Below are positions 12,543 to 46,476 of a DNA stretch of 64,000 nucleotides, one piece after another. Under the pieces are notes generated by a model. That model did not search any database. It saw nothing but the letters and a program-made list of their open reading frames with translations, and was not told where the DNA came from. The translations under genes and the position numbers were made by a program. Numbering within the stretch: position 1 is the first letter of the stretch; every line of letters begins with the position of its first letter. This DNA is from an uncultured bacterium. GTDB lineage: Bacteria > Fidelibacterota > Marinisomatia > Marinisomatales > UBA1611. The stretch covers positions 9,560 through 73,559 of the forward strand of contig CAZYDX010000001.1 in assembly GCA_964646455.1 (NCBI GenBank), written 5' to 3'.

Positions 12543-14066
12543 ATGAATTCTAAGATTAAATCGCTAAGTGCCCTTCAAGAAATAACTAAAGAACTTAAAT
12601 CAAATGGTAAAACTATAGTCCATTGCCATGGTGTTTTTGACTTGCTTCATATTGGACATATAAGACATTTCAAAGAAGCAAAATCTTTTGGTGACTATTT
12701 AATAGTTACTATTAGTCCTGATGAATTTGTAAATAAGGGACCAAATCGACCCGCATTTACAACTGAATTACGACTTGAAACTTTGGCTTCATTAGATTTT
12801 GTTGATTTTGTTGCTTCTAATAATTGGCCAACAGCTGTTGAAACGATTAAAATGTTAAATCCAGATATATATTGTAAAGGGCCAGATTATAAAGAACAAA
12901 GTGATGATATAACTGGTAAAATTAAAGATGAAAAGGAAGCTGTTAAGTTTATAGGTGGTGTAATTAGATATACAAAAGATATAACTTTTAGTTCAAGTAG
13001 TCTTCTAAATAAATTTGGTGAAATTTATAATAAGTCTCAAAAATCCTTCATTCAAAAGATATGTCATAAATATGATTTTGAAGATATAAAAACTAAAATA
13101 AGTAAAATGAAAGACCTCAGAATTCTTGTTGTAGGAGAAACTATAATTGATCAATATGTTTTTTGTCAAGCTTTGGGAAAATCAGGTAAAGAGCCTGTAC
13201 TTGTATTAAGAGAACTTGAAATGGAACAGTATGCAGGTGGAGCTGTAGCAATTGCAATGCATTTATCAGAATTTTGTGGAAGTATTACTTTATTAAGTAT
13301 GTTAGGTGAGAAAAAGGAATATGAGAATTTTCTTATTGATAATCTTCCAGATAATATTGAGCCATGCTTCATTTATAAAAACAATGCGCCAACTATTACA
13401 AAAAAGAGGTTTGTTGATCATGTTTCTAAGAGAAAATCTTTAGGGGTTTATACAATAAACGATTCACATATGGATAGTGAAAATAATAAACAATTTCAAA
13501 ATTATCTTAATGATTTAATACCCAAGCATGATTTATTAATTATTTCTGATTATGGGCATGGTTTTATATCTAAAGAATCTGCAATAAAGATTTCAAAGAA
13601 ATCTATTTTTACTTCTCTTAATGCGCAAATTAATGCATCAAATATTGGTTATCATACAATGGATAATTATAGAAATATAGATTGCGCAATTATAAATGAA
13701 AATGAAATTCGTCATGAATTACGAGATCGTGAAACAAATGTAAATGATTTAATGAAAACACTTGCCGAAAAAATGAAAGCAAATAGTTTAATAGTTACAC
13801 GTGGAAACAGAGGAGCAATATTATATAATTCTATAAAAAAGAAATATCATAATTGTCCAGCTTTTGCTTCAAAAATTATCGATAAAATAGGGGCTGGAGA
13901 TGCAATGTTAGCTTTACTAAGTTGTTCATTAAAAAGCGGTATTGATATTGATGTTTCACTGCTAATAGGTTCTCTTGCGGCAGCTCAATCTGTAGAGACC
14001 ATAGGTAATAGTATAAATGTTAATAAAAATCAATTAGTTAAGACTGTTTATCATTTATTTAAATAA
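12543..14066 (+). CDS. bifunctional nucleotidyltransferase + PfkB sugar kinase (HldE/RfaE-like, domains in inverted order)
   Basis: N-terminal cytidylyltransferase HxGH motif 'HCHGVFDLLHIGHIRHF'. The C-terminal ~320 aa is PfkB-like ('ILVVGETIIDQY', 'GAGDAMLALLS'). Confidence 0.75.
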   Translation: MNSKIKSLSALQEITKELKSNGKTIVHCHGVFDLLHIGHIRHFKEAKSFGDYLIVTISPDEFVNKGPNRPAFTTELRLETLASLDFVDFVASNNWPTAVETIKMLNPDIYCKGPDYKEQSDDITGKIKDEKEAVKFIGGVIRYTKDITFSSSSLLNKFGEIYNKSQKSFIQKICHKYDFEDIKTKISKMKDLRILVVGETIIDQYVFCQALGKSGKEPVLVLRELEMEQYAGGAVAIAMHLSEFCGSITLLSMLGEKKEYENFLIDNLPDNIEPCFIYKNNAPTITKKRFVDHVSKRKSLGVYTINDSHMDSENNKQFQNYLNDLIPKHDLLIISDYGHGFISKESAIKISKKSIFTSLNAQINASNIGYHTMDNYRNIDCAIINENEIRHELRDRETNVNDLMKTLAEKMKANSLIVTRGNRGAILYNSIKKKYHNCPAFASKIIDKIGAGDAMLALLSCSLKSGIDIDVSLLIGSLAAAQSVETIGNSINVNKNQLVKTVYHLFK

Positions 14067-15151: not shown

Positions 15152-15718
15152 ATGAATTCAAAATCCTTTTTATTAAAATACTTAAATGATTTTTCTGATC
15201 TAATTAAACCCAGACTAGATGATGTGGATAGCTTACTGGAAGTTGCAGAGTTATGTAAAAAAGTTAGAGAAAATCAAAACAAGATACTTATTTTTGGTAA
15301 TGGTGGTAGCGCAGCGATGGCAAGTCATTTTAGTGTGGATATTACAAAAAATGCAAGGATAAGGTGCTTGAACTTTAATGAAGCTGATCTTATCACATGT
15401 TTTGCAAATGATTATGGTTTTGATCGGTGGGTAGAAAAAGCAGTCGAATTTTATGGTAACGATGGAGATTTGTTAATACTTATATCCTCTAGTGGCAATT
15501 CAAAAAATATGCTTAATGCTGTTGATGTCGCTAGAAAAAAGAATTTTATGAGCGTTATAACACTTTCAGGATTCAATAAAAATAATCCTTTAAAGAAAAT
15601 GGGTAATTTGAATTTATGGGTAAATAATAAATCTTATAACTTTGTGGAAAACACCCATCAAATATGGCTATTATCTATTGTTGATCTCATAATTGGTTCG
15701 CGTGAATATTCCGTATAA
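15152..15718 (+). CDS. gmhA: phosphoheptose isomerase (SIS domain, GmhA-like)
   Basis: 'ILIFGNGGSAAMASHFSVD' and 'LILISSSGNSKN' are typical GmhA/SIS blocks. The length of 188 aa fits. Confidence 0.8.
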   Translation: MNSKSFLLKYLNDFSDLIKPRLDDVDSLLEVAELCKKVRENQNKILIFGNGGSAAMASHFSVDITKNARIRCLNFNEADLITCFANDYGFDRWVEKAVEFYGNDGDLLILISSSGNSKNMLNAVDVARKKNFMSVITLSGFNKNNPLKKMGNLNLWVNNKSYNFVENTHQIWLLSIVDLIIGSREYSV

Positions 15719-15740: not shown

Positions 15741-16721
15741 ATGAGAAAAATATTTGTTACAGGTGGAGCAGGTTACGTTGGAGCTGTTTTAGTTCCACGC
15801 TTACTTGATGAAGGTTATGAAGTAACGGTGCTTGATCTTATGATTTATGGACAAAATGTTTTACCAAATCATTCAAATTTAAATGCTATTAAAGGGGATA
15901 TTAGGAATTTGGATCTTTTGGATGAAATAGTTCCAGGTCATGATACAATTATACATTTAGCCTGTATATCAAATGATCCTAGTTTTGAATTGAATTCGGA
16001 TTTAGGTAAATCTATTAATTTGGACGCTTTTCGTCCTTTTGTTGAAATATCAAAAAAACGAAATGTTAGTCGTTTTATTTATGCATCTTCTTCAAGTGTC
16101 TATGGTATCAAAAAAGAAACTGATGTTCATGAAGGAATAATTTTAGAACCGCTTACAGATTATTCGCGTTTCAAGGCAGAATGTGAAAAAATTCTGTTAG
16201 AATATCAGTCTGATAGTTTTACAACAGTAACTATTCGACCTGCAACAGTATGCGGATATTCTCCTAGGCAGCGTTTAGATGTGGTTGTTAATATACTTAC
16301 AAACTTAGCATTTCATAAACGTGAAATTTCAGTTTTTGGTGGTAAACAACTGCGCCCCAATATACATATTCTAGATATGGTAGAAGCCTATATGACGCTT
16401 CTAAATTCCCCAAAGGAAAAGATAGCTGGAAAGATATTCAATGCTGGGTATGAAAATCAATCAGTTATGGAATTAGCTGAAACAGTTAAATCTGTAGTTG
16501 GTAGGGATGTCAAATTGGTACATACTCCCTCTGATGATAACAGATCTTATCATATTTCATCTGAAAAGATTAAGAAAGAGCTTGGCTTTGTTCCAAGTCA
16601 TACCATACGTGAAGCAGTTGAAGACCTTTGTAATGCATTCTCAAAAGGACTATTACCTGATTCACTTGAAAATGAAATGTATTTTAATATAAATAGAATG
16701 CAAAATTTGGAACTTAATTAA
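15741..16721 (+). CDS. NAD-dependent epimerase/dehydratase (extended SDR)
   Basis: 'IFVTGGAGYVGAVLV', 'ASSSSVYG', YxxxK in 'YSRFKAECE'. Confidence 0.8.
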   Translation: MRKIFVTGGAGYVGAVLVPRLLDEGYEVTVLDLMIYGQNVLPNHSNLNAIKGDIRNLDLLDEIVPGHDTIIHLACISNDPSFELNSDLGKSINLDAFRPFVEISKKRNVSRFIYASSSSVYGIKKETDVHEGIILEPLTDYSRFKAECEKILLEYQSDSFTTVTIRPATVCGYSPRQRLDVVVNILTNLAFHKREISVFGGKQLRPNIHILDMVEAYMTLLNSPKEKIAGKIFNAGYENQSVMELAETVKSVVGRDVKLVHTPSDDNRSYHISSEKIKKELGFVPSHTIREAVEDLCNAFSKGLLPDSLENEMYFNINRMQNLELN

Positions 16722-16723
16722 TA

Positions 16724-17824
16724 ATGAAAGTTAGATATTCATATCTACCACAGCAATTTAATGACTGTGAAGATTTATGGCAGGATTTACGAAAATTTGT
16801 TCCTACTGGAGATTTTACATTAGGGAAACCACTGAAAAAATTTGAGCACAGTTTTGCAGAATTAATTGGAGCAAAATATGCCATAGGTGTGAACTCTGGA
16901 ACTGATGCAATAAAAATAACTCTTAAAGCTTTGGGTATTGGTCCTGGTGATGAGGTTATAACTGCTGCTAATACTTTCGTAGCTACCGTTGGTGCCATTT
17001 GTGAATTGGGTGCTATTCCTGTTTTTGTAGATTGTGATGATACGTTTTGTATGGATGTAGATAATATTGAACATAAAATCACTGATAAAACTAAAGCCCT
17101 ATTACCGGTTCATTTTACTGGATATATGACTGATATGCGTAAAATCACAAAAATTGCAGATCAATATAAATTATTTGTTGTAGAGGATGCTTGCCAATCA
17201 ATTCTTGGATCTATTGATGGTAAAAAAGCTGGCAATTGGGGTTGTCCCGCAGCATTTTCTTTACATCCATTAAAAAATATTAATGTTTGGTCAGATGGAG
17301 GCGTGATTGTAACGGACGATGCTGACTTAAATAATAAATTGAGACTAATGCGAAATCATGGTTTAGAGGATAGAGATACGGTGTCTATTATGGGTTATAA
17401 TTCTCGTTTAGATACAATACAAGCTGTAGTAGGAAACTGGATTTTACCAAAGGCAAAATCAATCTCTGAGAAACGAATATCCAATGCTAATTACCTTGAC
17501 AATGGTCTTTCAAAAGTCAATCAGATCTCAATTCCTCCAAGGCCCAACGGATATCGGTTGGTTTACCACCTTTATATTATATTTGCAAAAGATAGAGATG
17601 GGCTATTAGAATATTGTATCGAAAGAGGAATTGAGGCAAAAATTCATTACCCTATTCCTATTTATCGACAACCTGCATTAAAATACCTTGGATATAGACA
17701 AGGTGATTTCCCAATTGCTGATTCTCACACCTCTAAAATTATTACATTCCCTTGCGATCAACACCTTGAGCAGTCCCAATTAGATTATATTATTAATACA
17801 GTAAGCGAATATTATGGCAGATAA
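16724..17824 (+). CDS. DegT-family PLP sugar aminotransferase
   Basis: 'GVNSGTDAIKITLKALG', 'VVEDACQSILG', 'AFSLHPLKNINVWSDGGVIVT', 'GYNSRLDTIQAVVG'. Confidence 0.85.
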   Translation: MKVRYSYLPQQFNDCEDLWQDLRKFVPTGDFTLGKPLKKFEHSFAELIGAKYAIGVNSGTDAIKITLKALGIGPGDEVITAANTFVATVGAICELGAIPVFVDCDDTFCMDVDNIEHKITDKTKALLPVHFTGYMTDMRKITKIADQYKLFVVEDACQSILGSIDGKKAGNWGCPAAFSLHPLKNINVWSDGGVIVTDDADLNNKLRLMRNHGLEDRDTVSIMGYNSRLDTIQAVVGNWILPKAKSISEKRISNANYLDNGLSKVNQISIPPRPNGYRLVYHLYIIFAKDRDGLLEYCIERGIEAKIHYPIPIYRQPALKYLGYRQGDFPIADSHTSKIITFPCDQHLEQSQLDYIINTVSEYYGR

Positions 17825-18926
17825 TAATATAATAATACCTTATGTAGACCTTTCTGCGCAATGGAGAGATGACCGTTCAGAACTACTACCTATAATTGAT
17901 AATTTACTGAGCAGCGGACATTATGTAGGCGGAGAAGAAATTGAGCACTTTGAAATTCAGATTGCCAAATTATGTCAGGTTAAATATGCTGTAGCTCTAA
18001 ATAGTGGTACAGACGCCCTAACTTTGTCTCTTCATTTATTAGGCGTAAACAAAGGAGATGAAGTTATAACTCCGCCTAATTCATTCATTGCTTCTACAGC
18101 AGTTATTGAGCATCTGGGAGCAGTACCTGTCTTTGTAGATGTTTTATCAGACCAAAACATTGACACAGAAATGATTGAATCTTCTATAACTAATAATACA
18201 AAAGCAATTATGCCAGTCCATTTAACAGGTAGGATGTGTGATATGGATAGAATTACTAATCTAGCAAATAATTACGGTTTAAAGATTATTGAAGATGCAG
18301 CACAAGCTATTGGCTCAAAGTATAGAGGAAAACCTAGCGGTTCTATAGGGCATGTCGGTTGTTTTTCAGCGCACCCTCTAAAAAATTTAAATGCATGTGG
18401 TGATGGTGGATTTATTACTACGAATGATTCTAATTTGTATGAAAGAGCTAAAGCGCTACGAAGTCATGGTATTATTGATCGTGATAGGGTAGATAGTTTT
18501 GGATATGTTTCTAGGATGGATAATCTTCAGGCAGCAATTTTAAGTTATAGATTAGATAAATTAGATAAAATCATTGAAAAAAGAAGAAAAAATGCTCAAT
18601 ATTATTTAGATAATATTGATAGTAATAAAGTAATTCTTCCTGTTGAGAAAGAATATGAATTCAATTCTTACCATACATTTGTTATACAAGTGGAAAAAAG
18701 AAATGAATTAAAAGATTTTTTACTTGAAAAAGGGATTGAAACTGCAATACACTATCCAACGCCCATTCATTTACAGCCGGCTGCAAAAGAATTAGGTTAC
18801 ACAATAGGGGATTTTCCCGTAACTGAAGCACAAGCTAATACGATATTGACCTTACCAGTGAATCAAAATTTAAGCCAAATCGAAATAGAGGCAATAAGCG
18901 CCGCAGTAAATAGTTTTTACATTTGA
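17814..18926 (+). CDS. DegT-family PLP sugar aminotransferase (tandem paralogue of 16724..17824)
   Basis: 'ALNSGTDALTLSLHLLG', 'IIEDAAQAIGS', 'CFSAHPLKNLNACGDGGFITT', 'SRMDNLQAAILS'. Confidence 0.85.
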   Translation: MADNNIIIPYVDLSAQWRDDRSELLPIIDNLLSSGHYVGGEEIEHFEIQIAKLCQVKYAVALNSGTDALTLSLHLLGVNKGDEVITPPNSFIASTAVIEHLGAVPVFVDVLSDQNIDTEMIESSITNNTKAIMPVHLTGRMCDMDRITNLANNYGLKIIEDAAQAIGSKYRGKPSGSIGHVGCFSAHPLKNLNACGDGGFITTNDSNLYERAKALRSHGIIDRDRVDSFGYVSRMDNLQAAILSYRLDKLDKIIEKRRKNAQYYLDNIDSNKVILPVEKEYEFNSYHTFVIQVEKRNELKDFLLEKGIETAIHYPTPIHLQPAAKELGYTIGDFPVTEAQANTILTLPVNQNLSQIEIEAISAAVNSFYI

Positions 18927-20536
18927 TAATTGGAATAGATCTTGATAACACTATTATCGACTACAGAGAATCTTTCTGGTTAACCTCTGTTTCTACTGGT
19001 ATTATTTCTGATAATGACAAGAAAGATTTTTGTTTAAAAAAGGGTACGTTTCCAAGTAAAAGTCAAATTAAACAATACCTAAAGTCCGAGAAAAATAGTG
19101 ATTTTATGTGGGAATCATTGCAGGGAAAGGTATATGGTCAGTATATACCTCATGCTAAAATTTATCCTGGATTTGCTAATTTTCTTTTACATTGTAAAAA
19201 TAGAGGCGTAAAGGTTTTCATTATTAGTCATAAAACTAAATTTGGACATAATGATAATAGTAAAACACCTTTACGAGAAGCAGCATTAAACTTTTTAAAG
19301 AAAAATAATTTATTTTCAGATGATTATGGAATCAATGAGAATGATGTGTTTTTTTTAAATACTCGAAATGCGAAAGTAAATAAAATTATGGATTTAAAGT
19401 GCACATATTTTATAGATGATTTACCTCAGATTTTTGAAGAAAAGAACTTTCCCCAAAAAACAACTAAAATACTTTTTGATCCTGTATCTGAGAGTCTAAT
19501 GAATGACACCTTTAATAGTTGGTGGACCATTAATAAATATATTTTTGACCAAGTCAAAAATTCTGATATTAGCGCGTATGTTGAAATTTGTATTAAGGAT
19601 AAAGTAAAATTAGTTAGCAATGTAAAAGGAAGGAAAAATAGCAATATATATAAAGTTAATATGAATTCCGGTAAAGAATTTGTAGGTAAGCTCTATCCTG
19701 ATAGAACCTTTGATAATCGCGATAGAATTACTAAAGAAACCTGCGCCTACAACTTTCTTCATTCAAATGAAATAAAAAAGGTACCAAAAACCATATATTC
19801 TAATCAAAATTTAAATTTTGCCCTATTTGAATGGGTTATTGGAAAAGAAATATCAGAAATAACCGAAGATCATATTCAGGGTGTTACTGATTTTGTAATA
19901 GAATTGGCAAATATAAGTAAAAATACAAACCCAGGGACTTTTGATTTAGCTTCAGCTGCTTGCCTTAGCGGTCAAATGATTGAACAACAGATTAATGAAA
20001 GATATACTGTTTTACTAAAATGTGCAGAATTACATTCTGATTTGTCCAATTTTTTGAATAATAACTTTTATGAAGCTATTAAAAAAATATTACCAGTAAG
20101 TAAAAAACACTGGCCAGGAGACTTTAGTAAAAAATTAAATAAATATCATAGAATATTGAGCCCATCTGATTTTGGTTTTCATAATATTTTACTTACAAAG
20201 AATGGTCTAAAGTTTATTGATTTTGAATATTTTGGTTGGGATGATCCTGTGAAACTTGTATGTGATTTTTTGCTTCATCCAGCTATGAATTTAACAGATT
20301 CACAAAGGTCAATATGGTTGGAAAAAATGAATGAGACTTTCTCTAATGATATTAATTTCAAAGCTAGATTATCAGCTTCCTATTATCTTTATGGGCTTTG
20401 TTGGTGTTTAATTATTTTAAATGTTTTCACTACAGAAAATATGAATGATAAAAAGCAAGCTATACAATTGTCAAAATCAAAAAAGTTGTTAAATCATATT
20501 ATTAGATTAAATGAAAAAGGAATTATGTATGCATGA
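18923..20536 (+). CDS. fusion protein: N-terminal HAD-like hydrolase + C-terminal APH/choline-kinase-like phosphotransferase
   Basis: HAD motif I 'IIGIDLDNTIIDY' and motif IV-like 'YFIDDLPQI'. Kinase block 'LSPSDFGFHNILLTKNGLKFIDFEYFGWDDP' (D-x4-N ... DFE). TTG start overlapping the upstream TGA. Confidence 0.6.
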   Translation: MIIGIDLDNTIIDYRESFWLTSVSTGIISDNDKKDFCLKKGTFPSKSQIKQYLKSEKNSDFMWESLQGKVYGQYIPHAKIYPGFANFLLHCKNRGVKVFIISHKTKFGHNDNSKTPLREAALNFLKKNNLFSDDYGINENDVFFLNTRNAKVNKIMDLKCTYFIDDLPQIFEEKNFPQKTTKILFDPVSESLMNDTFNSWWTINKYIFDQVKNSDISAYVEICIKDKVKLVSNVKGRKNSNIYKVNMNSGKEFVGKLYPDRTFDNRDRITKETCAYNFLHSNEIKKVPKTIYSNQNLNFALFEWVIGKEISEITEDHIQGVTDFVIELANISKNTNPGTFDLASAACLSGQMIEQQINERYTVLLKCAELHSDLSNFLNNNFYEAIKKILPVSKKHWPGDFSKKLNKYHRILSPSDFGFHNILLTKNGLKFIDFEYFGWDDPVKLVCDFLLHPAMNLTDSQRSIWLEKMNETFSNDINFKARLSASYYLYGLCWCLIILNVFTTENMNDKKQAIQLSKSKKLLNHIIRLNEKGIMYA

Positions 20537-21362
20537 TAATATGCATAAAGCTGCACTAGAAATTAAATTGGATGAACGTTCTAGATATCTTAGAAAAATG
20601 ACAGTTAAAACACTTGAGAGTGGAAAAAGGGCTCACCTAGGTTCTGCAATGTCCATTCTAGAAATTGTTAGAGTTTTATATGATGGTTATTTAAATATAG
20701 ATCCAAAAAATCTAGCAGATCTTGAAAGAGATCGATTTATTTTAAGTAAAGGCCATGGATGTTTGGCTCAATATGTTATCTTAGCTGACAAAGGTTTTTT
20801 TGATCAAAAAGAACTATTAAAATTTTGTCATGCGGAATCCATTTTAGGAGGGCACCCCGAACAAGGAAAAATTCCTGGCGTTGAAGCATCAACAGGGGCA
20901 CTGGGGCATGGTATGCCAATTGGTGTAGGCATGGCATTAGCAGCTAAATTGCATAATAGAAAAACAAAGGTTGCTGTGATTTTAGGAGATGGCGAAACAA
21001 ATGAAGGATCAATATGGGAAGCAGCCATGTCTGCAGCTAAACATAATCTTTCTAATCTTACTATTTTCATTGATTATAATAAAATTCAATCTTATGATTT
21101 TGTTTCTGAAGTTTTAAATCCAGAGCCGATGGCTGATAAATGGTCAAGTTTTGGTTTTTTTGTTAAGGAAGTGAATGGTCATGACATTAATGAGTTGAAT
21201 AATGAAATTTCAAAATTACCTTATGATAAAACAAAACCAACGGCGTTTATATGTCACACAATAAAAGGGAAAGGGTTCCCGTTCGCTGAAAATGACCCAA
21301 CTTGGCATCATAAATCTAATTTGACCGATTCTGAAATTAAAAATATGTACGATAATTTATAA
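20511..21362 (+). CDS. transketolase, N-terminal (ThDP-binding) subunit
   Basis: 'HLGSAMSILEIVRVLY', 'GALGHGMPIGVGMALA', ThDP motif 'ILGDGETNEGSIWEAAMSAAKHNLSNLTIFIDYN'. ATG 20529 or 20541 are alternative starts. Confidence 0.85.
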   Translation: MKKELCMHDNMHKAALEIKLDERSRYLRKMTVKTLESGKRAHLGSAMSILEIVRVLYDGYLNIDPKNLADLERDRFILSKGHGCLAQYVILADKGFFDQKELLKFCHAESILGGHPEQGKIPGVEASTGALGHGMPIGVGMALAAKLHNRKTKVAVILGDGETNEGSIWEAAMSAAKHNLSNLTIFIDYNKIQSYDFVSEVLNPEPMADKWSSFGFFVKEVNGHDINELNNEISKLPYDKTKPTAFICHTIKGKGFPFAENDPTWHHKSNLTDSEIKNMYDNL

Positions 21363-21367
21363 TAAAT

Positions 21368-22282
21368 ATGCGAAAAACTAGTTTAAATATGGTTTACGAA
21401 TTAGCTAAAAAAGATGATAGGGTTTTGTTTATTGGATCTGATCTTGGTCCTGGGGTTTTAAATGAATTTAAAAAAGATTTTCCGGACCGTTTTTTCATGG
21501 AAGGTATAGCAGAACAGCATATTATTGGTATGGCTGCAGGTCTTGCATTTGATGGTTTTATTCCTTATGTGAATACTATTGCAGTTTTTTTAACTCGTCG
21601 ATGTTTCGAGCAAGTAGCATTAGATCTTTGCCTTCATAATCTTCCAGTAAGATTAATTGGTAATGGAGGAGGGCTCGTATATGCACCCTTAGGCCCCACT
21701 CATCAAGCTATTGAGGACATTGGCATTTTACGTACATTACCTAATATGACAATTGTAGCTCCTTGTGATGCAAATGAGATGGAAAGACTTATGGTTGCAT
21801 CATTAGAGTGGCCACACCCATTATATATTCGTCTAGCAAAAGGTGGAGATCCAATAATTAGTAAATCAGAATTAGGATTTGAGATAGGTAAAGGAATCAA
21901 TTTGAGAAAAGGTAATAATGTTATATTTATTACAACTGGAATAACAGCTCAAAGAGCTAATGATGCTTGCTTAAAATTGAATGATGAACAGATTGATTGC
22001 GGATTATTTCATATGCATACAATTAAACCTTTTGACCATGAAGGTTTAAGGGAAGCCTCTAAATCTGCAGATTTAATTGTTACTTTAGAAGAGCATGTAT
22101 TAAATGGAGGGTTGGGAAGTGCTGTCTTAGAATCATTTTCTGATAACGGTATTATAAAAAAGGTTGTCAGACTAGGTATTCCTGATGTTTTTGCAAAGCA
22201 ATATGGATCACAAGATATTATACTTGAGGGTTTTGGGCTGGACTCAGATAGTATTGTAAAAACAGTCAAAAGATATCTATAA
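21368..22282 (+). CDS. transketolase, C-terminal (pyrimidine-binding) subunit
   Basis: 'FFMEGIAEQHIIGMAAGLAFDGFIPYVNTIAVFLTRRCFEQV', 'GPTHQAIEDIGILRTLPNMTIVAPCD'. Confidence 0.85.
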   Translation: MRKTSLNMVYELAKKDDRVLFIGSDLGPGVLNEFKKDFPDRFFMEGIAEQHIIGMAAGLAFDGFIPYVNTIAVFLTRRCFEQVALDLCLHNLPVRLIGNGGGLVYAPLGPTHQAIEDIGILRTLPNMTIVAPCDANEMERLMVASLEWPHPLYIRLAKGGDPIISKSELGFEIGKGINLRKGNNVIFITTGITAQRANDACLKLNDEQIDCGLFHMHTIKPFDHEGLREASKSADLIVTLEEHVLNGGLGSAVLESFSDNGIIKKVVRLGIPDVFAKQYGSQDIILEGFGLDSDSIVKTVKRYL

Positions 22283-22315
22283 CAAATAAATAAAATAGAA
22301 ATAGGAAAATAAACT

Positions 22316-22981
22316 ATGGGTAAACTTGTAAATTATGTTACACCTTTACATATAGCTACTAGTCGAGCTTATATCGACCGTATGGTAGATGAAAAGGTTG
22401 AATGTATGTTAAAGGCTAAAGAGTATGAAGAAGATTATTGGGACGGAGATCGCCGTTATGGTTATGGCGGATATAAATATATTCCTGGCAGGTGGAAGCC
22501 AGTTGCAGAGGCATTAATAAAGAATTATAATCTTACAAATGAATCTAGTGTTTTGGATATAGGCTGCGGAAAAGGATATCTTTTGTACGAAATGAAATTA
22601 TTACTCCCAGATTTGATAATTGCAGGTTTTGATAGTTCAAATCATGGACTTGCCAATGCAAAAGAAGAAATCAAAGAATTTTTATTTTCTCATAAAGCCC
22701 AAGAAAAGTACCCTTATAAAGAAGACGAATTTGATTTAGTTATATCATTGGGGTGTATACATAATTTGAGGATATTTGAAATTGAGAAAGCATTAAATGA
22801 AATTGAAAGGGTAGGTAAACAAGGATATATAATGATGGAGAGCTATCGCAATGAACAAGAACAATTTAATCTTCAATGTTGGGCGCTTACGTGCGAATCT
22901 TTTTTTGATTATAAGGAATGGCCATGGATATATGACCACTTTGGCTATACTGGCGATTATGAATTTATTTATTTTGAGTAA
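22316..22981 (+). CDS. class I SAM-dependent methyltransferase
   Basis: Motif I 'VLDIGCGKGYLLYE'; 'FDLVISLGCIHNL'. Confidence 0.75.
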   Translation: MGKLVNYVTPLHIATSRAYIDRMVDEKVECMLKAKEYEEDYWDGDRRYGYGGYKYIPGRWKPVAEALIKNYNLTNESSVLDIGCGKGYLLYEMKLLLPDLIIAGFDSSNHGLANAKEEIKEFLFSHKAQEKYPYKEDEFDLVISLGCIHNLRIFEIEKALNEIERVGKQGYIMMESYRNEQEQFNLQCWALTCESFFDYKEWPWIYDHFGYTGDYEFIYFE

Positions 22982-22987
22982 TTAATA

Positions 22988-24019
22988 ATGAAAGCAGCAA
23001 TAATACAAAAAAGTAAAGAACCTTTAGTGGTAGTTGATATTGATTTGCCCGAAAAGTTGGAAGTTGGTCAGGTTTTAGTGAAATTGAGTTATAGTGGGAT
23101 TTGTGGTGCGCAAATAAATGAAATTGATGCAATGAAAGGACCCGATAAATTTCTACCGCATTTACTAGGTCACGAAGGATCTGGTATAGTAAAAGAAATT
23201 GGACCAGGAGTTTCAACCGTAATGCAGGGGGATCATGTCGTGTTGCACTGGCGACCTAGCAAAGGAATTCAATCACCCACGCCTAAATACAATTGGAATG
23301 GTAAACGGGTTAATGCTGGATGGGTGACTACTTTTAATGAGGAAGCGGTAATTTCTGAAAATAGATTAACAGTGATTCCTAAAAATTTTGATATGAGAAT
23401 TGCACCATTGTTTGGATGTGCAGTTACTACAGCCTTTGGTGTTGTAAATAATGATGCAAAAATAAAAGTAGGTCAGTCTGTAGTAATTTTTGGTATTGGA
23501 GGAGTTGGACTCAATATTGCACAAGCTGCATCAATGGTTAGTGCCAATCCTATTGTAGGTGTAGACTTATTAGAAAATAAATTAGAAATGGGTAAAAAAT
23601 TTGGCCTAACTCATACTATTATAGGTGGTATTGAAGATTATATAAATAAAATTAAGAATATTGTTGGAGAAGAAGGTGCTGACATAGTTATTGAAACAAC
23701 AGGTAATTCACGAATTATTGAGCAAGCATATAAGCTGACACATCCTGATGGTAGAACAATATTAGTTGGTGTCCCTAATAAAGGAGATAATGTATCTATC
23801 TATACTTTACCATTACATTTCAACAAAATACTTACTGGATCGCATGGAGGTGACTCTATCCCTGATCTTGAAATACCGCGCTATATAAAATTATTGGAAG
23901 CTGGTAAAATGAGCCTAAATGACCTAATTACACATGAATTTAGTTTGAATGAGGTTAACGAGGCGCTTGATCTTTTTCGATCAGGACAAGCTGGAAGAAT
24001 AATAATAAATATGAGTTAG
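22988..24019 (+). CDS. zinc-dependent medium-chain alcohol/polyol dehydrogenase
   Basis: Zn-ligand region 'GICGAQINE...LGHEGSGIVKEIGPGV'; Rossmann 'VIFGIGGVGLNIAQAA'. Confidence 0.8.
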   Translation: MKAAIIQKSKEPLVVVDIDLPEKLEVGQVLVKLSYSGICGAQINEIDAMKGPDKFLPHLLGHEGSGIVKEIGPGVSTVMQGDHVVLHWRPSKGIQSPTPKYNWNGKRVNAGWVTTFNEEAVISENRLTVIPKNFDMRIAPLFGCAVTTAFGVVNNDAKIKVGQSVVIFGIGGVGLNIAQAASMVSANPIVGVDLLENKLEMGKKFGLTHTIIGGIEDYINKIKNIVGEEGADIVIETTGNSRIIEQAYKLTHPDGRTILVGVPNKGDNVSIYTLPLHFNKILTGSHGGDSIPDLEIPRYIKLLEAGKMSLNDLITHEFSLNEVNEALDLFRSGQAGRIIINMS

Positions 24020-24027
24020 ATGAAGAA

Positions 24028-25368
24028 ATGGGAAATTCAAAATTATTAAAAACATTTTTAAACATGCCTGAATTACCAATAGTAAGAAAAGGTGATGGCA
24101 TTTATCTTTATATGAAAGATGGAAAAAAAATTCTTGATACTACTGGAGGGTTTACGGCACATGCTATTTTGGGTTGGTCACAACCCACTGTAATAGATGC
24201 GATTATTAAACAGGCAAGGAAAATCACCCATATTGATTACAAGACCTTTTCCGATATAAACAGGGAGAAATTGGCTAGTTTACTACTATCTAGAGCTGAA
24301 CATGATCTTGACAGAGTTTATTTTGTTGGTAGTTCCGGAGGAGAAGCCTGTGAGGCGGCCATGAAATTAAGTTATCAGGCCCATTATGACACTGGTAAAA
24401 AGGAAAAGACTTGGTTTATTTCTAGGGAGCAGTCTTATCATGGCTCTTCCACGGACGCATTAGCTGTAGGTCATCGGCCAAACCTTGACTTTTACAAACC
24501 TCTTTTACCAAATAAAAGGGCAAAAATATCCGAACACAATATGTACCGGGATAAAAATGATAATGAAACAATGGATGAATATTCTCACCGAAGTGCGAAA
24601 CAATTAGAAGACAAGATTCTTGAAATTGGTCCGGAAAAAGTATGCGCATTTATTGCAGAAACAATCATGGGGGGTCTTGTTGGTGATGTTCCTCCTGCGC
24701 CAAATTATTGGAAATATGTTAATAGTATTTGTAAAAAATATGATGTGCATTTGATTCTTGATGAAGTTTGGTGTGGTACAGGAACTAGTGGTAAAATTTA
24801 TTGTGTTGATTGGGATAATATTACACCAGATTTTATATTTATTGGTAAAACACTGGGGGCTGGTTTTGCGCCATTAAGTGCTTTGGTTACAAGTAGCAAA
24901 ATTGAAGAGAAAATTAGAAATGGACAAGGTCAGATACAGCATTCAACTACTCACCAAGGGCACTCGCTCTGTGTTGCAGCGGCCTTAGCTGTGCAAAAAA
25001 TTATACACAATGATAGTTTTCTTGAAGAAATAAATACTAAAGGTGAAATATTAAGGAATACATTAGAAAATGAACTAGGAAATCATCCTTTTTATTCAAA
25101 TGTCAGAGGAAGAGGTTTGAGGAATTCTCTTGAATATCAATGTGAGGATCAACATTTATTTGGAAATGCTCTTGCCCAAGAAATGAAAGAAAATTTTGGT
25201 ATATTAATCAGCGGGAAATGGCATAGAGTCTGTTTTTCACCAGCTCTAACAATAACAATGGATGAATTAGATTTTGTTTTAAATTCATTTATTGAGACTT
25301 TTAATAATGTTGCATCGAAATGGGATAAAAAGTATAGATCTAAAATTGATATAAAGCCAATCTTTTAA
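24028..25368 (+). CDS. class-III (omega-type) PLP aminotransferase
   Basis: 'SGGEACEAAMKLS', 'LILDEVWCGTGTSGK', PLP-lysine block 'IGKTLGAGFAPLSA'. Confidence 0.8.
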   Translation: MGNSKLLKTFLNMPELPIVRKGDGIYLYMKDGKKILDTTGGFTAHAILGWSQPTVIDAIIKQARKITHIDYKTFSDINREKLASLLLSRAEHDLDRVYFVGSSGGEACEAAMKLSYQAHYDTGKKEKTWFISREQSYHGSSTDALAVGHRPNLDFYKPLLPNKRAKISEHNMYRDKNDNETMDEYSHRSAKQLEDKILEIGPEKVCAFIAETIMGGLVGDVPPAPNYWKYVNSICKKYDVHLILDEVWCGTGTSGKIYCVDWDNITPDFIFIGKTLGAGFAPLSALVTSSKIEEKIRNGQGQIQHSTTHQGHSLCVAAALAVQKIIHNDSFLEEINTKGEILRNTLENELGNHPFYSNVRGRGLRNSLEYQCEDQHLFGNALAQEMKENFGILISGKWHRVCFSPALTITMDELDFVLNSFIETFNNVASKWDKKYRSKIDIKPIF

Positions 25369-25387: not shown

Positions 25388-25879
25388 ATGGATTTAAGTT
25401 ATAAAATAAACCTTAAGGATTCAAAATCCATCATCTTAGATGATTCAGGTAAATCTATTGCATGTTTTACCGTCAATGATATTGTTGCAATAGATAATAG
25501 TGTTATCGATCAATTAATTGGATTATCAGAGGAATTGGGTAAAAAAGACATTCGTATATGCTTACATCAAAATAACGAAAGTAAATTGCACAATATGATA
25601 AATCTTATTTACAAGAAAAAAATAAATGTTCCTCATAAGCATCTAGATAAATCAGAAAGCTATCATATAATTAGGGGGCAAATGATTATAAGTATATATG
25701 ATAATGAGGCTAATATAAAAGATAAATATTTTCTTGACGAAAATGATACTTTCTTATTTAGAGTTGGGAAAGATAATTTTCATACTACTGTTCCTGTTTC
25801 GGACTATGTTATTGTTCATGAAACTCGTTCAGGTCCTTTTAACAAAAATGGTGATAGTATATTTTTCAACAAAAAATAA
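25388..25879 (+). CDS. small cupin-fold protein, WbuC-like
   Basis: 163 aa. 'IRICLHQNNESKLHNMINLI...VPHKHLDKSESYHIIRGQMII' resembles the WbuC-family cupins found in O-antigen loci. This is recalled, not searched. Confidence 0.45.
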   Translation: MDLSYKINLKDSKSIILDDSGKSIACFTVNDIVAIDNSVIDQLIGLSEELGKKDIRICLHQNNESKLHNMINLIYKKKINVPHKHLDKSESYHIIRGQMIISIYDNEANIKDKYFLDENDTFLFRVGKDNFHTTVPVSDYVIVHETRSGPFNKNGDSIFFNKK

Positions 25880-25894: not shown

Positions 25895-26458
25895 ATGAAT
25901 ATTGGCGAATCTTATTACACTGAACAAGAATTGAATTCATTTGGTTTTTTAAAGATTGGAAAAAATGTTCTTATTAAAAAGAATGCAACTATTATCTATT
26001 CTGAAAATATTTCTATTGGTGATAATGTAAGGATTGATGATTTTTGTTTTATTATAGCTAAAAATAAATTAAAAATTGGTTCTTATTGTCATATTTCATC
26101 ACATTGTGTAATTAGAGCTGATGAAAAAATATCAATTGGGAATTTTGTACAAATTTCGAATAATGTTATAATCTTAACTGTTACTGATGATTTCTCAGGT
26201 GAGTTTCTAGGAGGTCCAATGGTGCCTAATAAATATACTAAAGTATCAGGTGGAAGTATAATTTTAGAGGATCATGTGCTTTTGGGCGCGGGAAGCGTTG
26301 TTTTGCCAAACTGCACTCTATTAGAAGGTGCTGCTGTAGGTGCTAATTCATTAGTAGATAGAGATTTAGATGAATGGATTATTTATTTTGGCAATCCTGT
26401 AAGAGCAGTTAAAAAAAGAAAAAAAGACAGAAAAGAGCTTGGACTAAAATTAATCTAA
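25895..26458 (+). CDS. hexapeptide-repeat (left-handed beta-helix) acyl/acetyltransferase
   Basis: Repeated [LIV]-G-x4 hexapeptides: 'IGDNVRIDDFCFI', 'IGSYCHISSHCVI', 'IGNFVQISNNVII', 'LLGAGSVVLPNCTLLEGAAVGANSLV'. Confidence 0.75.
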   Translation: MNIGESYYTEQELNSFGFLKIGKNVLIKKNATIIYSENISIGDNVRIDDFCFIIAKNKLKIGSYCHISSHCVIRADEKISIGNFVQISNNVIILTVTDDFSGEFLGGPMVPNKYTKVSGGSIILEDHVLLGAGSVVLPNCTLLEGAAVGANSLVDRDLDEWIIYFGNPVRAVKKRKKDRKELGLKLI

Positions 26459-26482
26459 TTTATTATTACTTCTCATTAAGTA

Positions 26483-43585: not shown

Positions 43586-43592
43586 GATTCAT

Positions 43593-44738: not shown

Positions 44739-44739
44739 A

Positions 44740-46472: not shown

Positions 46473-46476
46473 ATGT

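What the first reader, a model, noticed from the sequence alone, without database searches (positions are those of the whole stretch)
18923..25368. HAD-kinase fusion + split transketolase + methyltransferase + Zn-ADH + class-III aminotransferase cassette
Six contiguous, overlapping genes make up this cassette. The first is a HAD-like hydrolase fused to an APH/choline-kinase-like phosphotransferase. Next are the two halves of a ThDP transketolase (GDG-x-N motif intact). A SAM methyltransferase, a Zn-dependent alcohol dehydrogenase and an omega-type aminotransferase complete the set. None of these is a standard nucleotide-sugar tailoring enzyme. ThDP enzymes in glycan and antibiotic sugar pathways install two-carbon branches (for example YerE in yersiniose, or the AviB1/B2-type E1 pairs in branched sugars). 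A transketolase pair could likewise extend or branch a keto-sugar. Alternatively it could build a small amino-polyol phosphate through ketol transfer, reduction, transamination and phosphorylation. That product would be attached as a non-carbohydrate substituent, by analogy with serinol- or aminopropanol-phosphate-type decorations in Campylobacter capsules. The product is not predictable from known pathways.
Basis: inference. Interest (0 to 1): 0.65.

Follow-up and report, generated by a model that had tools for sequence, protein, structure and literature searches.

The report
Transketolase-like sugar-building cassette, product unknown
The six genes are real; five of them form the conserved core of a widespread, biochemically uncharacterised surface-sugar pathway, also present in the Leptospira O-antigen locus, whose transketolase-like enzyme has a remodelled substrate pocket and probably adds two carbons to an unusual sugar.

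Summary
Observation confirmed. Six tightly packed + strand genes encode a HAD-phosphatase/APH-kinase fusion, split transketolase (TK) alpha and beta, a 221-aa SAM methyltransferase, a Zn-ADH and a class-III (omega) aminotransferase.

They are not a six-gene unit. In 48 related loci with full flanks, from more than ten phyla including Leptospira rfb-type loci, the fusion always sits with both TK subunits (48/48). The methyltransferase is usual (43/48) and the ADH is in under half (21/48). The aminotransferase is rare (2/48).

The module is embedded in a larger nucleotide-sugar cluster. That cluster has GmhA-like, reversed HldE-like and SDR genes, C-methyltransferases, radical SAM enzymes and a TIGR04372 glycosyltransferase. 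It overlaps NCBIfam's uncharacterised 'sporadic carbohydrate cluster' (LIC12192 family).

The TK is not housekeeping. The catalytic and ThDP residues are kept. The sugar- and phosphate-binding residues EcTK H461, D469 and R520 are Gly, Leu and Lys here, and H461 and D469 are lost in all three cassette TK subtypes.

Best model (confidence 0.4): a C2 ketol transfer extends a non-canonical sugar aldehyde. The ADH, or a mutually exclusive 2OG oxygenase, makes the aldehyde. The HAD/kinase fusion moves phosphate around that step, and the product is then activated as an NDP-sugar. The product itself remains unknown.

The parts
18923..20536 (+). Bifunctional HAD phosphatase (residues ~1-210, C1-capped) fused to an APH/choline-kinase-like small-molecule kinase (residues ~225-537).
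   Evidence: Pfam APH 9.6e-7, HAD_2 1.2e-3. Invariant HAD motifs, and kinase K256, D416...N421 and D433. AF2 pLDDT 89 and 90. Foldseek hits to APH(9), choline kinase, NahK and MTR kinase for the kinase domain, and to 5'(3')-deoxyribonucleotidase and phosphoglycolate phosphatase for the HAD domain. More than 3800 homologues of about 545 aa.
20511..21362 (+). TK-like ThDP enzyme, alpha (PP-domain) subunit. The true start may be an internal ATG a few codons downstream.
   Evidence: Transketolase_N 5e-44. Best PDB match is the C. hydrogenoformans split TK, 6yak_A, 2e-66. EcTK H26, H66, H100, H261, GDG...N are conserved.
21368..22282 (+). TK-like ThDP enzyme, beta (Pyr + C-terminal domain) subunit with a remodelled acceptor pocket.
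   Evidence: Transket_pyr plus Transketolase_C. Best PDB match 6yaj, 2e-57. The motif reads 'GGGLVYAPLGPTHQ' where the bona fide TK reads 'THAGLTVGEDGASHQ', so EcTK H461 becomes Gly and D469 becomes Leu; R520 becomes Lys. Glu411, H473, R358 and S385 equivalents are kept.
22316..22981 (+). 221-aa class I SAM methyltransferase ('MT221'), the most conserved protein of the module.
   Evidence: Methyltransf_31/25/11. 68-78% identical across phyla where the fusion is only 35-40% identical. Present in 43 of 48 full loci.
22988..24019 (+). Zn-dependent medium-chain ADH of the class I/III/P type, which acts on primary alcohols and aldehydes. It lacks the structural-zinc lobe.
   Evidence: ADH_N plus ADH_zinc_N. 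Nearest PDB entries are class P and class III ADHs, about 1e-41. Present in 21 of 48 loci. Mutually exclusive with the TIGR04324 2OG oxygenase (1 overlap in 49 loci, Fisher p = 0.004).
24028..25368 (+). Class-III (omega-type) aminotransferase. It is an accessory to the module, not part of the core.
   Evidence: Aminotran_3 4e-72. Nearest PDB entries are omega-, GABA- and polyamine transaminases. Found in only the window, L021, L043 and L045, always next to a WbuC-like cupin.
25388..25879 (+). WbuC-family cupin (DUF6016), a frequent companion of the module and the constant neighbour of the aminotransferase.
   Evidence: TIGR04366, 93 bits, above cut-off. Present in 23 of 48 loci.
15741..16721 (+). 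Extended SDR (GalE- or dehydratase-like). In related loci this gene usually lies immediately upstream of the fusion.
   Evidence: Epimerase 3.9e-38. 54-76% identical orthologues directly upstream of the fusion in most loci; present in 42 of 48.
16724..18926 (+). Two DegT/PseC-like sugar aminotransferases, inserted between the SDR and the fusion. Leptospira has the same arrangement.
   Evidence: DegT_DnrJ_EryC1 1.5e-98 and 3.3e-109. PseC and LegC-like, below cut-offs. 61-71% identical in L028 and L030. Present in 11-12 of 48 loci.
15152..15718 (+). Divergent GmhA-like SIS-domain ketose-phosphate isomerase.
   Evidence: SIS_2. gmhA 89.8 bits against a cut-off of 209. Present in 26 of 48 loci.
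12543..14066 (+). Reversed HldE-like fusion: a nucleotidyltransferase (PF01467) at the N-terminus and a PfkB sugar kinase at the C-terminus.
   Evidence: Pfam. HldE 186.7 bits against a cut-off of 521. Present in 39 of 48 loci.
11558..12535 (+). Extended SDR, GalE- or LegB-like 4,6-dehydratase or epimerase.
   Evidence: Epimerase 3.5e-64. GalE 5.6e-55 and LegB 6.4e-53. 60-75% identical orthologues in 42 of 48 loci.
32868..34121 (+). TIGR04372-family putative glycosyltransferase, a candidate transferase for the module's product.
   Evidence: TIGR04372, 191.5 bits against a cut-off of 45. Homologues in 11 related loci, including the S. carbinolicus plasmid.

Best explanation
The region is the core of a horizontally spread pathway that builds an unusual, probably higher-carbon, nucleotide-activated sugar for a surface glycan.

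Shown:
- The HAD-phosphatase/kinase fusion and a split TK-like ThDP enzyme form an obligate unit.
- That unit is usually followed by a very conserved methyltransferase, and then by either a primary-alcohol-type Zn-ADH or a 2OG oxygenase.
- It lies inside clusters with a GmhA-like isomerase, an HldE-like kinase/nucleotidyltransferase, SDR dehydratases/epimerases, sugar aminotransferases and C-methyltransferases.
- The TK keeps its catalytic machinery but has lost the residues that hold the C2-hydroxyl (D469) and part of the phosphate (H461, R520) of ordinary sugar-phosphate substrates.

Inferred mechanism:
1. The ADH, or in other lineages the oxygenase, oxidises a primary alcohol of a sugar intermediate to an aldehyde.
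2. The TK-like enzyme transfers a glycolaldehyde (C2 ketol) unit from a ketol donor (hydroxypyruvate or a ketose phosphate) onto that non-canonical aldehyde. This gives a keto-sugar longer by two carbons.
3. The fused HAD and kinase domains remove a phosphate before this step and install one after it.
4. The methyltransferase O-methylates the intermediate.
5. The product is isomerised and nucleotide-activated by the GmhA-like and HldE-like enzymes, tailored, and transferred, possibly by the TIGR04372 enzyme.

In this window only, the omega-aminotransferase additionally converts the aldehyde or keto group into an amine, in the manner of Kdo8N formation by KdnB and KdnA.
For: Co-conservation:
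- TK alpha and beta are in 48 of 48 full loci carrying the fusion. The methyltransferase is in 43, SDRs in 42, the HldE-like gene in 39 and the GmhA-like gene in 26.
- The gene order recurs in Desulfobacterales, Poribacteria, Chlorobiaceae, Anaerolineales, Verrucomicrobiota, Elusimicrobia, Woesearchaeota, Pelagibacter and Leptospira.

TK residues:
- Catalytic His residues, GDG...N and Glu411 are kept. H461 is Gly, D469 is Leu and R520 is Lys in the window. All three cassette TK subtypes lack H461 and D469.
- The roles of these residues are taken from PMC11387542.
- Engineered D469/R520/S385 variants shift E. coli TK towards non-phosphorylated, non-hydroxylated aldehydes (PMC5073344).

Oxidation step:
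- The ADH belongs to the primary alcohol/aldehyde class.
- ADH and 2OG oxygenase occupy the same position after the TK genes and are mutually exclusive (p = 0.004). This fits a shared oxidative, aldehyde-forming role.

Fusion protein:
- Both active sites are intact.
- The HAD domain has a small-substrate C1-cap fold, not a GmhB fold.
- A separate GmhB-like gene is present in 5 loci.
- The kinase fold family includes anomeric sugar kinases (NahK) and MTR kinase.

Context:
- The cluster is nucleotide-sugar tailoring throughout.
- On the S. carbinolicus plasmid the module directly follows pseB and pseC.

Precedent (my own knowledge): lincosamide octose synthesis uses a transaldolase, a GmhA-like isomerase, a kinase, a phosphatase and a nucleotidyltransferase.
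Against: - No enzyme here has been assayed, and no glycan structure is known from any organism carrying the module.
- The order of steps is not resolved. The TK could act first on a small sugar phosphate, or late on a free or NDP-bound sugar.
- R358, S385 and a Lys at position 520 are retained, so a phosphorylated acceptor is not excluded.
- The ADH is absent from more than half of the loci. Some loci have neither an ADH nor the oxygenase within 10 kb.
- The roles assigned to the HAD and kinase domains are by logic only. Foldseek hits are generic.
- A TK acting on an NDP-sugar aldehyde has no precedent.
- The mutual exclusivity test ignores phylogenetic non-independence.
Confidence: 0.4

Rival explanations
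1. 'TK first': the TK-like enzyme makes an unusual ketose phosphate from a small modified aldose phosphate, for example a 2-deoxy, 2-amino or 2-O-methyl pentose or hexose phosphate. The kinase domain supplies that substrate. The ketose phosphate is then processed exactly as in the heptose pathway: GmhA-like isomerase, anomeric kinase, HAD phosphatase and nucleotidyltransferase give an NDP-heptose or NDP-octose analogue. The ADH and methyltransferase are late tailoring enzymes. This is a sub-variant of the best explanation with a different step order.
For: - GmhA-like and HldE-like genes score well below their equivalog cut-offs, which suggests a non-standard substrate.
- R358, S385 and Lys520 are retained, which could still bind a phosphate.
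- D469 to Leu fits an acceptor without a 2-hydroxyl.
- Analogy with the lincosamide LmbR/N/P/K/O pathway (my own knowledge).
Against: - It does not explain why the ADH or 2OG oxygenase sits directly beside the TK genes as alternatives.
- The HAD domain has a C1-cap fold, not a GmhB-type fold, and a separate GmhB-like gene exists in 5 loci.
- The GmhA-like gene is found in only 26 of 48 loci.
Confidence: 0.25
2. Two-carbon side group: the TK-like enzyme delivers its ThDP-bound C2 unit as a branch or substituent. The target would be an NDP-4-keto or formyl-branched sugar (functionally like YerE or AviB), or an amino group (a glycolyl group). It would not lengthen the sugar chain.
For: - The module follows 4,6-dehydratase-type SDRs and PseC-like aminotransferases.
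- C-methyltransferases and RmlD-like reductases typical of branched deoxysugar pathways co-occur.
- Some loci add PDH-E1-like alpha/beta pairs.
- Two-subunit TKs transfer C2 units to non-sugar acceptors in rifamycin biosynthesis (PMC6002545).
Against: - TK-family enzymes use aldehyde acceptors, not ketones.
- No oxidant, lipoyl or ACP partner is conserved. FkbH and ACP are in 0 of 48 loci.
- It gives no role to the obligate HAD-kinase fusion.
Confidence: 0.15
3. Non-carbohydrate substituent: the TK, ADH, aminotransferase, kinase and methyltransferase build a small polyol or amino-alcohol phosphate. A PF01467 cytidylyltransferase activates it as a CDP-alcohol, and it is attached to the glycan as a decoration.
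For: - The kinase fold is closest to choline and ethanolamine kinases among others.
- The nucleotidyltransferase domain also matches glycerol-3-P cytidylyltransferase, 5.9e-16.
- The HAD domain is of the small-substrate type.
- The ADH and omega-transaminase act on small alcohols and aldehydes.
- The class-III AT + phosphatase + Zn-ADH triad recalls 1-deoxynojirimycin biosynthesis (my own knowledge).
Against: - The aminotransferase is in 2 of 48 loci.
- No LicD- or CDP-alcohol-transferase family is among the conserved neighbours.
- The nucleotidyltransferase matches HldE domain II better, 4e-27.
- The conserved partners are sugar isomerase, sugar kinase and NDP-sugar SDRs.
Confidence: 0.12
4. 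Housekeeping or substrate-supply transketolase: an ordinary split TK placed in the island to raise sedoheptulose-7-P supply for heptose synthesis.
For: - GmhA-like and HldE-like genes lie nearby.
- The best PDB match is a genuine split TK.
Against: - The H461 and D469 equivalents are lost in every cassette TK examined.
- The type-2 beta subunits lack the whole C-terminal domain.
- Linkage to the HAD-kinase fusion is strict.
- Two TK-like pairs occur in single loci and on one plasmid.
Confidence: 0.05

Closest known systems
Split-gene transketolase of Carboxydothermus hydrogenoformans (PDB 6yak/6yaj; PMC7661550)
   Same: Two-subunit architecture: PP domain on alpha, Pyr + C domains on beta. Best sequence match, 2e-66 and 2e-57. 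ThDP motif and catalytic His and Glu residues are shared.
   Different: The window enzyme has Gly, Leu and Lys at EcTK positions 461, 469 and 520, where the C. hydrogenoformans enzyme has His at 461 and Asp at 469 (alignment) and carries no substitution at R520 (PMC7661550). It sits in a glycan island fused in operon with a HAD-kinase. A related subtype lacks the C-terminal domain altogether.
Neofunctionalised TK-like enzymes: Rif15 two-subunit TK (rifamycin L, PMC6002545), AniP (anisomycin, PMC11387542), DesAB steroid desmolase and SqwGH sulfo-sugar TK (PMC3735941, PMC11659671)
   Same: TK scaffold recruited to a specialised pathway, with non-standard donor or acceptor and altered substrate-binding residues.
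   Different: None of these is in a surface-glycan nucleotide-sugar cluster, and none is coupled to a HAD-kinase fusion.
Higher-carbon NDP-sugar pathways: ADP/GDP-heptose (GmhA, HldE/HddA, GmhB, HddC) and lincosamide GDP-octose (LmbR transaldolase, LmbN, LmbP, LmbK, LmbO). My own knowledge.
   Same: The logic is the same: a ketose phosphate is made or extended by a carbon-transfer enzyme, then isomerised, phosphorylated at C1, dephosphorylated at the far end and nucleotidylated. GmhA-like and HldE-like genes are present.
   Different: Carbon transfer here is by a TK-like ThDP enzyme (C2), not a transaldolase (C3). The HldE-like protein has reversed domain order and sub-threshold scores. The phosphatase is a C1-capped HAD fused to an APH-type kinase rather than GmhB plus a GHMP or PfkB kinase.
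NCBIfam/TIGRFAMs 'sporadic carbohydrate cluster' (TIGR04323 LIC12192 family, TIGR04324 2OG-Fe(II) oxygenase) and TIGR04372 glycosyltransferase
   Same: The Leptospira locus that carries these marker genes carries the same fusion, TK and MT221 genes at 37-68% identity, in the same order. The window has a TIGR04372 protein.
   Different: The window lacks the two marker proteins and has the ADH (plus aminotransferase) instead. The family names record a bioinformatic co-occurrence only, and no function is known. No paper in the library mentions them.
Kdo8N formation (KdnB alcohol oxidation, then KdnA transamination). My own knowledge.
   Same: An ADH followed by a PLP aminotransferase can turn a terminal CH2OH into CH2NH2. 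This is a plausible role for the window-specific ADH + omega-transaminase pair.
   Different: KdnB is, as I recall, an iron-type ADH, not a Zn medium-chain ADH. The substrate here is unknown.

Membership tests
Canonical transketolase (EC 2.2.1.1) | ThDP/Mg binding motif GDG-X(25-30)-N and the cofactor-activating Glu (EcTK E411) | tested here: met
   'GDGETNEG...IDYN' in alpha and 'GIAEQH' in beta.
Canonical transketolase (EC 2.2.1.1) | Catalytic and sugar-binding histidines EcTK H26, H66, H100, H261, H473 | tested here: met
   All are aligned and conserved against the C. hydrogenoformans TK.
Canonical transketolase (EC 2.2.1.1) | Asp469, which binds the acceptor C2-OH / donor C4-OH and sets stereoselectivity | tested here: not met
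   Leu in the window ('YAPLGPTH'). It is absent from every beta subunit printed, covering all three cassette subtypes. Role of the residue from PMC11387542.
Canonical transketolase (EC 2.2.1.1) | Phosphate-binding set R358, S385, H461, R520 | tested here: not met
   R358 (R2) and S385 (S23) equivalents are kept. H461 is Gly and R520 is Lys.
Canonical transketolase (EC 2.2.1.1) | Being the cell's pentose-phosphate-pathway enzyme (sole or housekeeping copy) | not testable with these tools
   Only a 95-kb contig is available. Indirect evidence against: two TK-like pairs occur in single loci and on a plasmid.
HAD-superfamily phosphatase | Motifs I-IV (DxDxT, S/T, K, DD) and a Rossmann-like core with cap | tested here: met
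   D6, D8, T10, S102, K151, D165 and D166 are invariant in 13 sequences. Model pLDDT 90. C1-capped HAD hits with TM up to 0.65.
GmhB (heptose 1,7-bisphosphate phosphatase) | HAD-IIIA capless fold with a Zn-binding Cys loop, and an HMM match to GmhB | tested here: not met
   The fusion has no GmhB or HAD-IIIA hit. The fold is C1-capped. Genuine GmhB-like genes occur separately in 5 loci.
APH / choline-kinase-like small-molecule kinases | Bilobal kinase fold, ATP-binding Lys, catalytic D-x4-N loop and Mg-binding Asp | tested here: met
   PF01636 above cut-off. K256, D416...N421 and D433 invariant. Foldseek probability 1.0 to APH(9), choline kinase, LicA, NahK and MtnK. Substrate not inferable.
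ADP-heptose pathway (GmhA, HldE) | Equivalog-level HMM scores and the HldE domain order, kinase then adenylyltransferase | tested here: not met
   gmhA 89.8 bits against 209; HldE 186.7 bits against 521; domain order reversed. The proteins are related but probably act on a different substrate.
'Sporadic carbohydrate cluster' (TIGR04323 / TIGR04324) | Presence of the LIC12192-family protein and its partner 2OG oxygenase | tested here: not met
   Both are present in Leptospira locus L028 and in 18-21 related loci. No member of either ORF family comes from the window's contig L001, which covers window ~10.5-31.4 kb only. The 261-aa ORF at 14242-15027 has no NCBIfam hit. The rest of the window was not scanned for these two families. 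The window shares the fusion, TK, MT221, SDR and TIGR04372 genes with that cluster.
YerE / AviB1-B2 two-carbon branching enzymes | YerE: acetolactate-synthase-type ThDP/FAD fold. AviB: PDH E1 alpha/beta fold. | tested here: not met
   Alpha subunit: Transketolase_N 151 bits against E1_dh 28.6 and TPP_enzyme_C 22.5. The resemblance is at most functional.
Azasugar (1-deoxynojirimycin-type) three-gene signature | Co-conserved class-III aminotransferase + phosphatase + Zn-ADH | tested here: not met
   The domains are present in the window, but the aminotransferase co-occurs in only 2 of 48 loci and the ADH in 21 of 48.

The most novel reading that the evidence does not exclude
A dedicated clade of TK-like ThDP enzymes, always paired with a HAD-kinase fusion, performs a two-carbon chain extension on tailored sugar aldehydes. 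This would create a previously unrecognised class of higher-carbon (C8-C9) neutral keto- or amino-sugars in the surface glycans of bacteria and archaea from more than ten phyla, including the chemically unsolved Leptospira O-antigen. It would be a ThDP-based counterpart of the PEP-dependent NeuB route to nonulosonic acids.
Probability: 0.3. Interest if true: 0.85.

Novelty: new variant of a known kind. Interest (0 to 1): 0.6.

Why it matters
Transketolase-family enzymes have, to my knowledge, no established role in surface-glycan nucleotide-sugar biosynthesis. Here one with a remodelled pocket is the invariant centre of a module found in hundreds of genomes (556 relatives in one representative-genome scan) and more than 3800 protein clusters.

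The module spans marine bacteria, sulfate reducers, green sulfur bacteria, Verrucomicrobiota, archaea and pathogenic Leptospira. In Leptospira the O-antigen determines serovar and vaccine specificity, and its chemistry is still poorly known.

Solving the reaction would do three things:
- Add a new carbon-carbon bond-forming step to sugar biochemistry.
- Give function to several 'sporadic carbohydrate cluster' families that databases name but do not explain.
- Supply naturally evolved TK variants (D469L, H461G) of the kind sought in biocatalysis.

Tried and rejected
- **PDB sequence search for the fusion.** Both the single sequence and the profile gave nothing significant.
- **Foldseek on the whole fusion and on the HAD domain.** This confirmed the folds, but the hits are generic and do not identify a substrate.
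- **Eight literature searches.** Topics were TK in O-antigen, heptose or Leptospira contexts, split TK, Coxiella/virenose, and the TIGR family names. None found a characterised homologous system. The search for EcTK residue roles was useful.
- **HAD domain as the missing GmhB.** Rejected: wrong HAD subclass, and a separate GmhB-like gene is present in 5 loci.
- **Module as part of nonulosonic-acid (Pse/Leg) synthesis.** This was suggested by the pseB-pseC neighbours on a Solidesulfovibrio plasmid. It is not general, because NeuB-like genes lie within 10 kb in only 4 loci.
- **Downstream FkbH, ACP, glyoxalase and hexapeptide genes as part of the module.** Rejected: the hexapeptide gene is in 1 of 48 loci and the other three in 0 of 48.
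- **Housekeeping TK.** Rejected on residues and context.
- **Azasugar triad and amino-polyol phosphate.** Downgraded because the aminotransferase is not conserved.
- **Plasmid collection search.** It gave a single hit. The phage and E. coli collections were not searched because they seemed irrelevant.

Full report
**The observation**

The window is a low-GC (about 29%) marine metagenome contig. Every ORF of 100 aa or more is on the + strand apart from two short antisense ORFs. The same sequence is on JGI contig Ga0117902_1000277 and eight others.

- a 537-aa protein with an N-terminal HAD phosphatase domain and a C-terminal APH/choline-kinase-like domain;
- a split transketolase, with Transketolase_N on one gene and Transket_pyr + Transketolase_C on the next;
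- a 221-aa class I SAM methyltransferase;
- a Zn-dependent medium-chain alcohol dehydrogenase;
- a class-III aminotransferase.

The HAD assignment scores just under the Pfam cut-off. It is secured by invariant catalytic motifs in an alignment of 13 homologues down to 36% identity, and by AlphaFold models of the whole protein (pLDDT 89) and of the HAD domain alone (pLDDT 90). The HAD model matches C1-capped HAD phosphatases, and the C-terminal domain matches small-molecule kinases.

The genes are tightly packed: one 26-nt overlap, otherwise gaps of 5 to 33 nt.

**What is conserved with what**

The fusion protein defines a large family of more than 3800 clusters of about 545 aa. A scan of one genome per species found 556 relatives, and 80 loci were fetched. 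They come from Chlorobiaceae, Anaerolineales, Bacteroidia, Planctomycetota, Verrucomicrobiota, Elusimicrobia, Nitrospirae, many Proteobacteria, Actinomycetota, Woesearchaeota, Pelagibacter, and Leptospira interrogans and L. alexanderi.

I compared these loci by tblastn with the window's proteins and by clustering all locus ORFs. Counts are for the 48 loci with at least 6 kb on both sides of the fusion.

| Gene | Loci (of 48) |
|---|---|
| TK alpha | 48 |
| TK beta | 48 |
| Methyltransferase (MT221) | 43 |
| Extended SDRs | 42 |
| Reversed HldE-like nucleotidyltransferase + PfkB kinase | 39 |
| GmhA-like isomerase | 26 |
| WbuC-type cupin | 23 |
| ADH | 21 |
| DegT aminotransferases | 11-12 |
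| Class-III aminotransferase | 2 |
| Hexapeptide acyltransferase | 1 |
| FkbH, ACP, glyoxalase | 0 |

- The TK alpha gene lies within 600 bp downstream, or a few kb upstream, of the fusion in 73 of 78 loci.
- The methyltransferase is 68-78% identical across phyla, where the fusion is only 35-40% identical.
- The class-III aminotransferase is in 4 loci overall and is always beside the cupin.

So the conserved unit is the fusion plus TK alpha/beta, usually with MT221 and often with the ADH. It is embedded in a bigger nucleotide-sugar cluster. The aminotransferase is a local accessory.

Other frequent neighbours are TylC3-type C-methyltransferases, RmlD-like reductases, radical SAM/SPASM enzymes, NUDIX hydrolases and NTP transferases. 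Two further neighbour families are ones NCBIfam names only as 'sporadic carbohydrate cluster 2OG-Fe(II) oxygenase' (TIGR04324) and 'LIC12192 family sporadic carbohydrate cluster protein' (TIGR04323). A TIGR04372 putative glycosyltransferase is also frequent, and the window has one at 32868-34121.

The Leptospira locus has the same order as the window, at 60-72% identity for every shared gene except the fusion (37%) and the GmhA-like SIS protein (35%): SIS, SDR, HldE-like, SDR, DegT, DegT, fusion, TK alpha, TK beta..., MT221, cupin. No paper in the library mentions these families, and none describes a function for the module.

**The transketolase is not an ordinary one**

Its best PDB relative is the biochemically validated split TK of Carboxydothermus hydrogenoformans. 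Aligned to it, the window enzyme keeps the following:
- the ThDP motif;
- the activating Glu;
- the His residues equivalent to E. coli TK H26, H66, H100, H261 and H473.

Where the true TK reads 'THAGLTVGEDGASHQ', the window reads 'GGGLVYAPLGPTHQ'. H461 is therefore Gly and D469 is Leu, and R520 is Lys.

All cassette-linked beta subunits fall into three subtypes, and all three lack H461 and D469. One subtype also lacks the whole C-terminal domain (167-aa beta subunit).

According to PMC11387542:
- R358, S385, H461 and R520 hold the substrate phosphate;
- D469 hydrogen-bonds the sugar hydroxyl and selects the stereoisomer.

Engineered S385Y/D469T/R520Q variants move E. coli TK from phosphorylated sugars to non-phosphorylated, aliphatic and aromatic aldehydes (PMC5073344).

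Three further observations argue against housekeeping:
- the invariant link to the fusion;
- loci with two TK-like pairs (L014, L049, L067);
- a Solidesulfovibrio plasmid with two such pairs.

This excludes the housekeeping reading as far as sequence can. It points to a non-canonical aldehyde acceptor and perhaps a small donor such as hydroxypyruvate.

**The other enzymes**

- **ADH.** It is nearest to class I/III/P ADHs, which interconvert primary alcohols and aldehydes, and it lacks the structural-zinc lobe.
- **ADH versus oxygenase.** In the loci, the position just after the TK genes is filled either by MT221-ADH or by the 2OG oxygenase + LIC12192 pair, followed by MT221. Among 49 loci with MT221, ADH and oxygenase co-occur once (Fisher p = 0.004; not corrected for phylogeny). 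Only an oxidative task, such as alcohol to aldehyde, is common to both enzyme types.
- **HAD domain.** It is a C1-capped, small-substrate type. Its nearest folds are 5'(3')-deoxyribonucleotidase and phosphoglycolate phosphatase. It is not GmhB-like, and GmhB-like genes are present separately in 5 loci.
- **Kinase domain.** It has all catalytic residues. Its fold class includes anomeric sugar kinases and MTR kinase, but the hits are generic.
- **GmhA-like and HldE-like proteins.** They score far below their equivalog cut-offs, and the HldE-like protein has reversed domain order. This suggests a heptose-type activation route working on a different substrate.
- **Class-III aminotransferase.** It is an omega-transaminase relative.

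**Most likely mechanism**

Shown:
- an obligate unit of HAD-kinase fusion and TK-like enzyme;
- a remodelled TK acceptor pocket;
- an alternative ADH or oxygenase;
- nucleotide-sugar context.

Inferred:
- An alcohol of a sugar intermediate is oxidised to an aldehyde.
- The TK-like enzyme adds a C2 ketol unit, giving a longer keto-sugar.
- The HAD and kinase domains remove and re-install phosphate on either side of this step.
- MT221 methylates.
- The GmhA-like and HldE-like enzymes convert the product to an NDP-sugar for further tailoring and transfer.
- In this window the omega-transaminase would turn the aldehyde or keto group into an amine, as in Kdo8N synthesis.

I put 0.4 on this.

Rival readings:

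| Rival | Confidence | Comment |
|---|---|---|
| 'TK first': an unusual ketose phosphate is made from a small modified aldose phosphate, then processed as in the heptose or lincosamide-octose pathways | 0.25 | Same chemistry, different step order |
| C2 branch or glycolyl donor | 0.15 | Fits the deoxysugar-tailoring neighbours, but TKs use aldehydes and no oxidant or carrier is conserved |
| Small polyol or amino-alcohol phosphate substituent | 0.12 | Weak: the aminotransferase is rare and no CDP-alcohol transferase is conserved |
| Housekeeping or S7P-supply TK | 0.05 | Contradicted by residues and context |

**Comparison with known systems, and novelty**

By sequence the enzyme is a member of the TK superfamily, but it fails two defining substrate-binding features of EC 2.2.1.1. 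By logic the pathway resembles the ADP-heptose and lincosamide-octose routes, and the recruitment of split TKs in rifamycin, anisomycin, steroid and sulfoquinovose metabolism. None of those is a glycan pathway, and none carries the HAD-kinase fusion.

Databases have noticed parts of the cluster as a 'sporadic carbohydrate cluster' without assigning a function. I therefore class it as a new variant of a known kind: biochemically uncharacterised, widespread and experimentally tractable. Its product is still unknown. Interest 0.6.

Noticed in passing
window 30574-32745: A single 723-aa ORF fuses a pyruvate-kinase-like N-terminal half (PK, 289 bits) to a PUA_2 + ATP-sulfurylase C-terminal half (sulfate adenylyltransferase, 382 bits). 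This is an unusual fusion. With the sulfotransferase at 8059-9081, it suggests a sulfated glycan.
   Followed up: partly
window 25895-28876: A hexapeptide acyltransferase, a glyoxalase/methylmalonyl-CoA-epimerase-like protein, an FkbH-domain protein (268 bits) and an 83-aa ACP. This looks like a glyceryl-ACP type N- or O-acylation module. It is not conserved with the TK module: the hexapeptide gene is in 1 of 48 loci and the other three in 0 of 48.
   Followed up: partly
window 41458-51613: Two short NeuB-family proteins (271 and 283 aa, apparently lacking the C-terminal SAF domain), two CTP_transf_3 cytidylyltransferases (a third lies at 5209-5946), a GT29 sialyltransferase-like protein, an enolase-superfamily protein, a 2-hydroxyacid dehydrogenase, and a second class-III aminotransferase (50228-51613, 24% identical to the first). 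Several ulosonic-acid-type modules therefore sit in the same island.
   Followed up: partly
window 14242-15027: A 261-aa ORF with no Pfam or NCBIfam hit lies between the HldE-like and GmhA-like genes. Its C-terminal 'LIHGG...R.S' pattern looks like a PhyH-type Fe/2OG dioxygenase by eye. No homologue was found in the 48 related loci.
   Followed up: no
L028 13763-14949 and 18-21 other loci: The TIGR04324 2OG oxygenase and TIGR04323 LIC12192-family protein always occur as an adjacent pair right after the TK beta gene. They are mutually exclusive with the Zn-ADH; only L025 has both.
   Followed up: partly
L007, L010, L013-L017, L019, L021, L023, L024, L031, L039, L045: A second TK subtype linked to the same fusion has a 250-aa alpha subunit and a beta subunit of only about 167 aa, with no transketolase C-terminal domain and a three-residue deletion in the acceptor loop ('GFAD---YPTLGPTH').
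   Followed up: partly
L034, L049, L050: Some related loci carry an extra PDH-E1-like alpha/beta pair (E1 alpha 266 bits, E1 beta 228 bits) next to the module. This is a second ThDP-dependent two-carbon enzyme in the same glycan cluster.
   Followed up: no
L091 (Solidesulfovibrio carbinolicus plasmid pDCAR1) 14995-16625: Here the HAD and kinase parts are annotated as two separate genes (a 205-aa hypothetical protein and a 333-aa APH-family protein). They directly follow genes annotated pseB and pseC. The gene table lists no TK alpha gene before the second TK beta, which may be a pseudogene or a gap in the table.
   Followed up: no
window 1-64000: Apart from two short antisense ORFs (5178-5528 and 16714-17082, the latter inside the DegT gene), all 65 ORFs of 100 aa or more are on the + strand, and GC skew is positive throughout. 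GC is slightly higher (31-34%) across 16-26 kb than in the flanks (24-30%).
   Followed up: no
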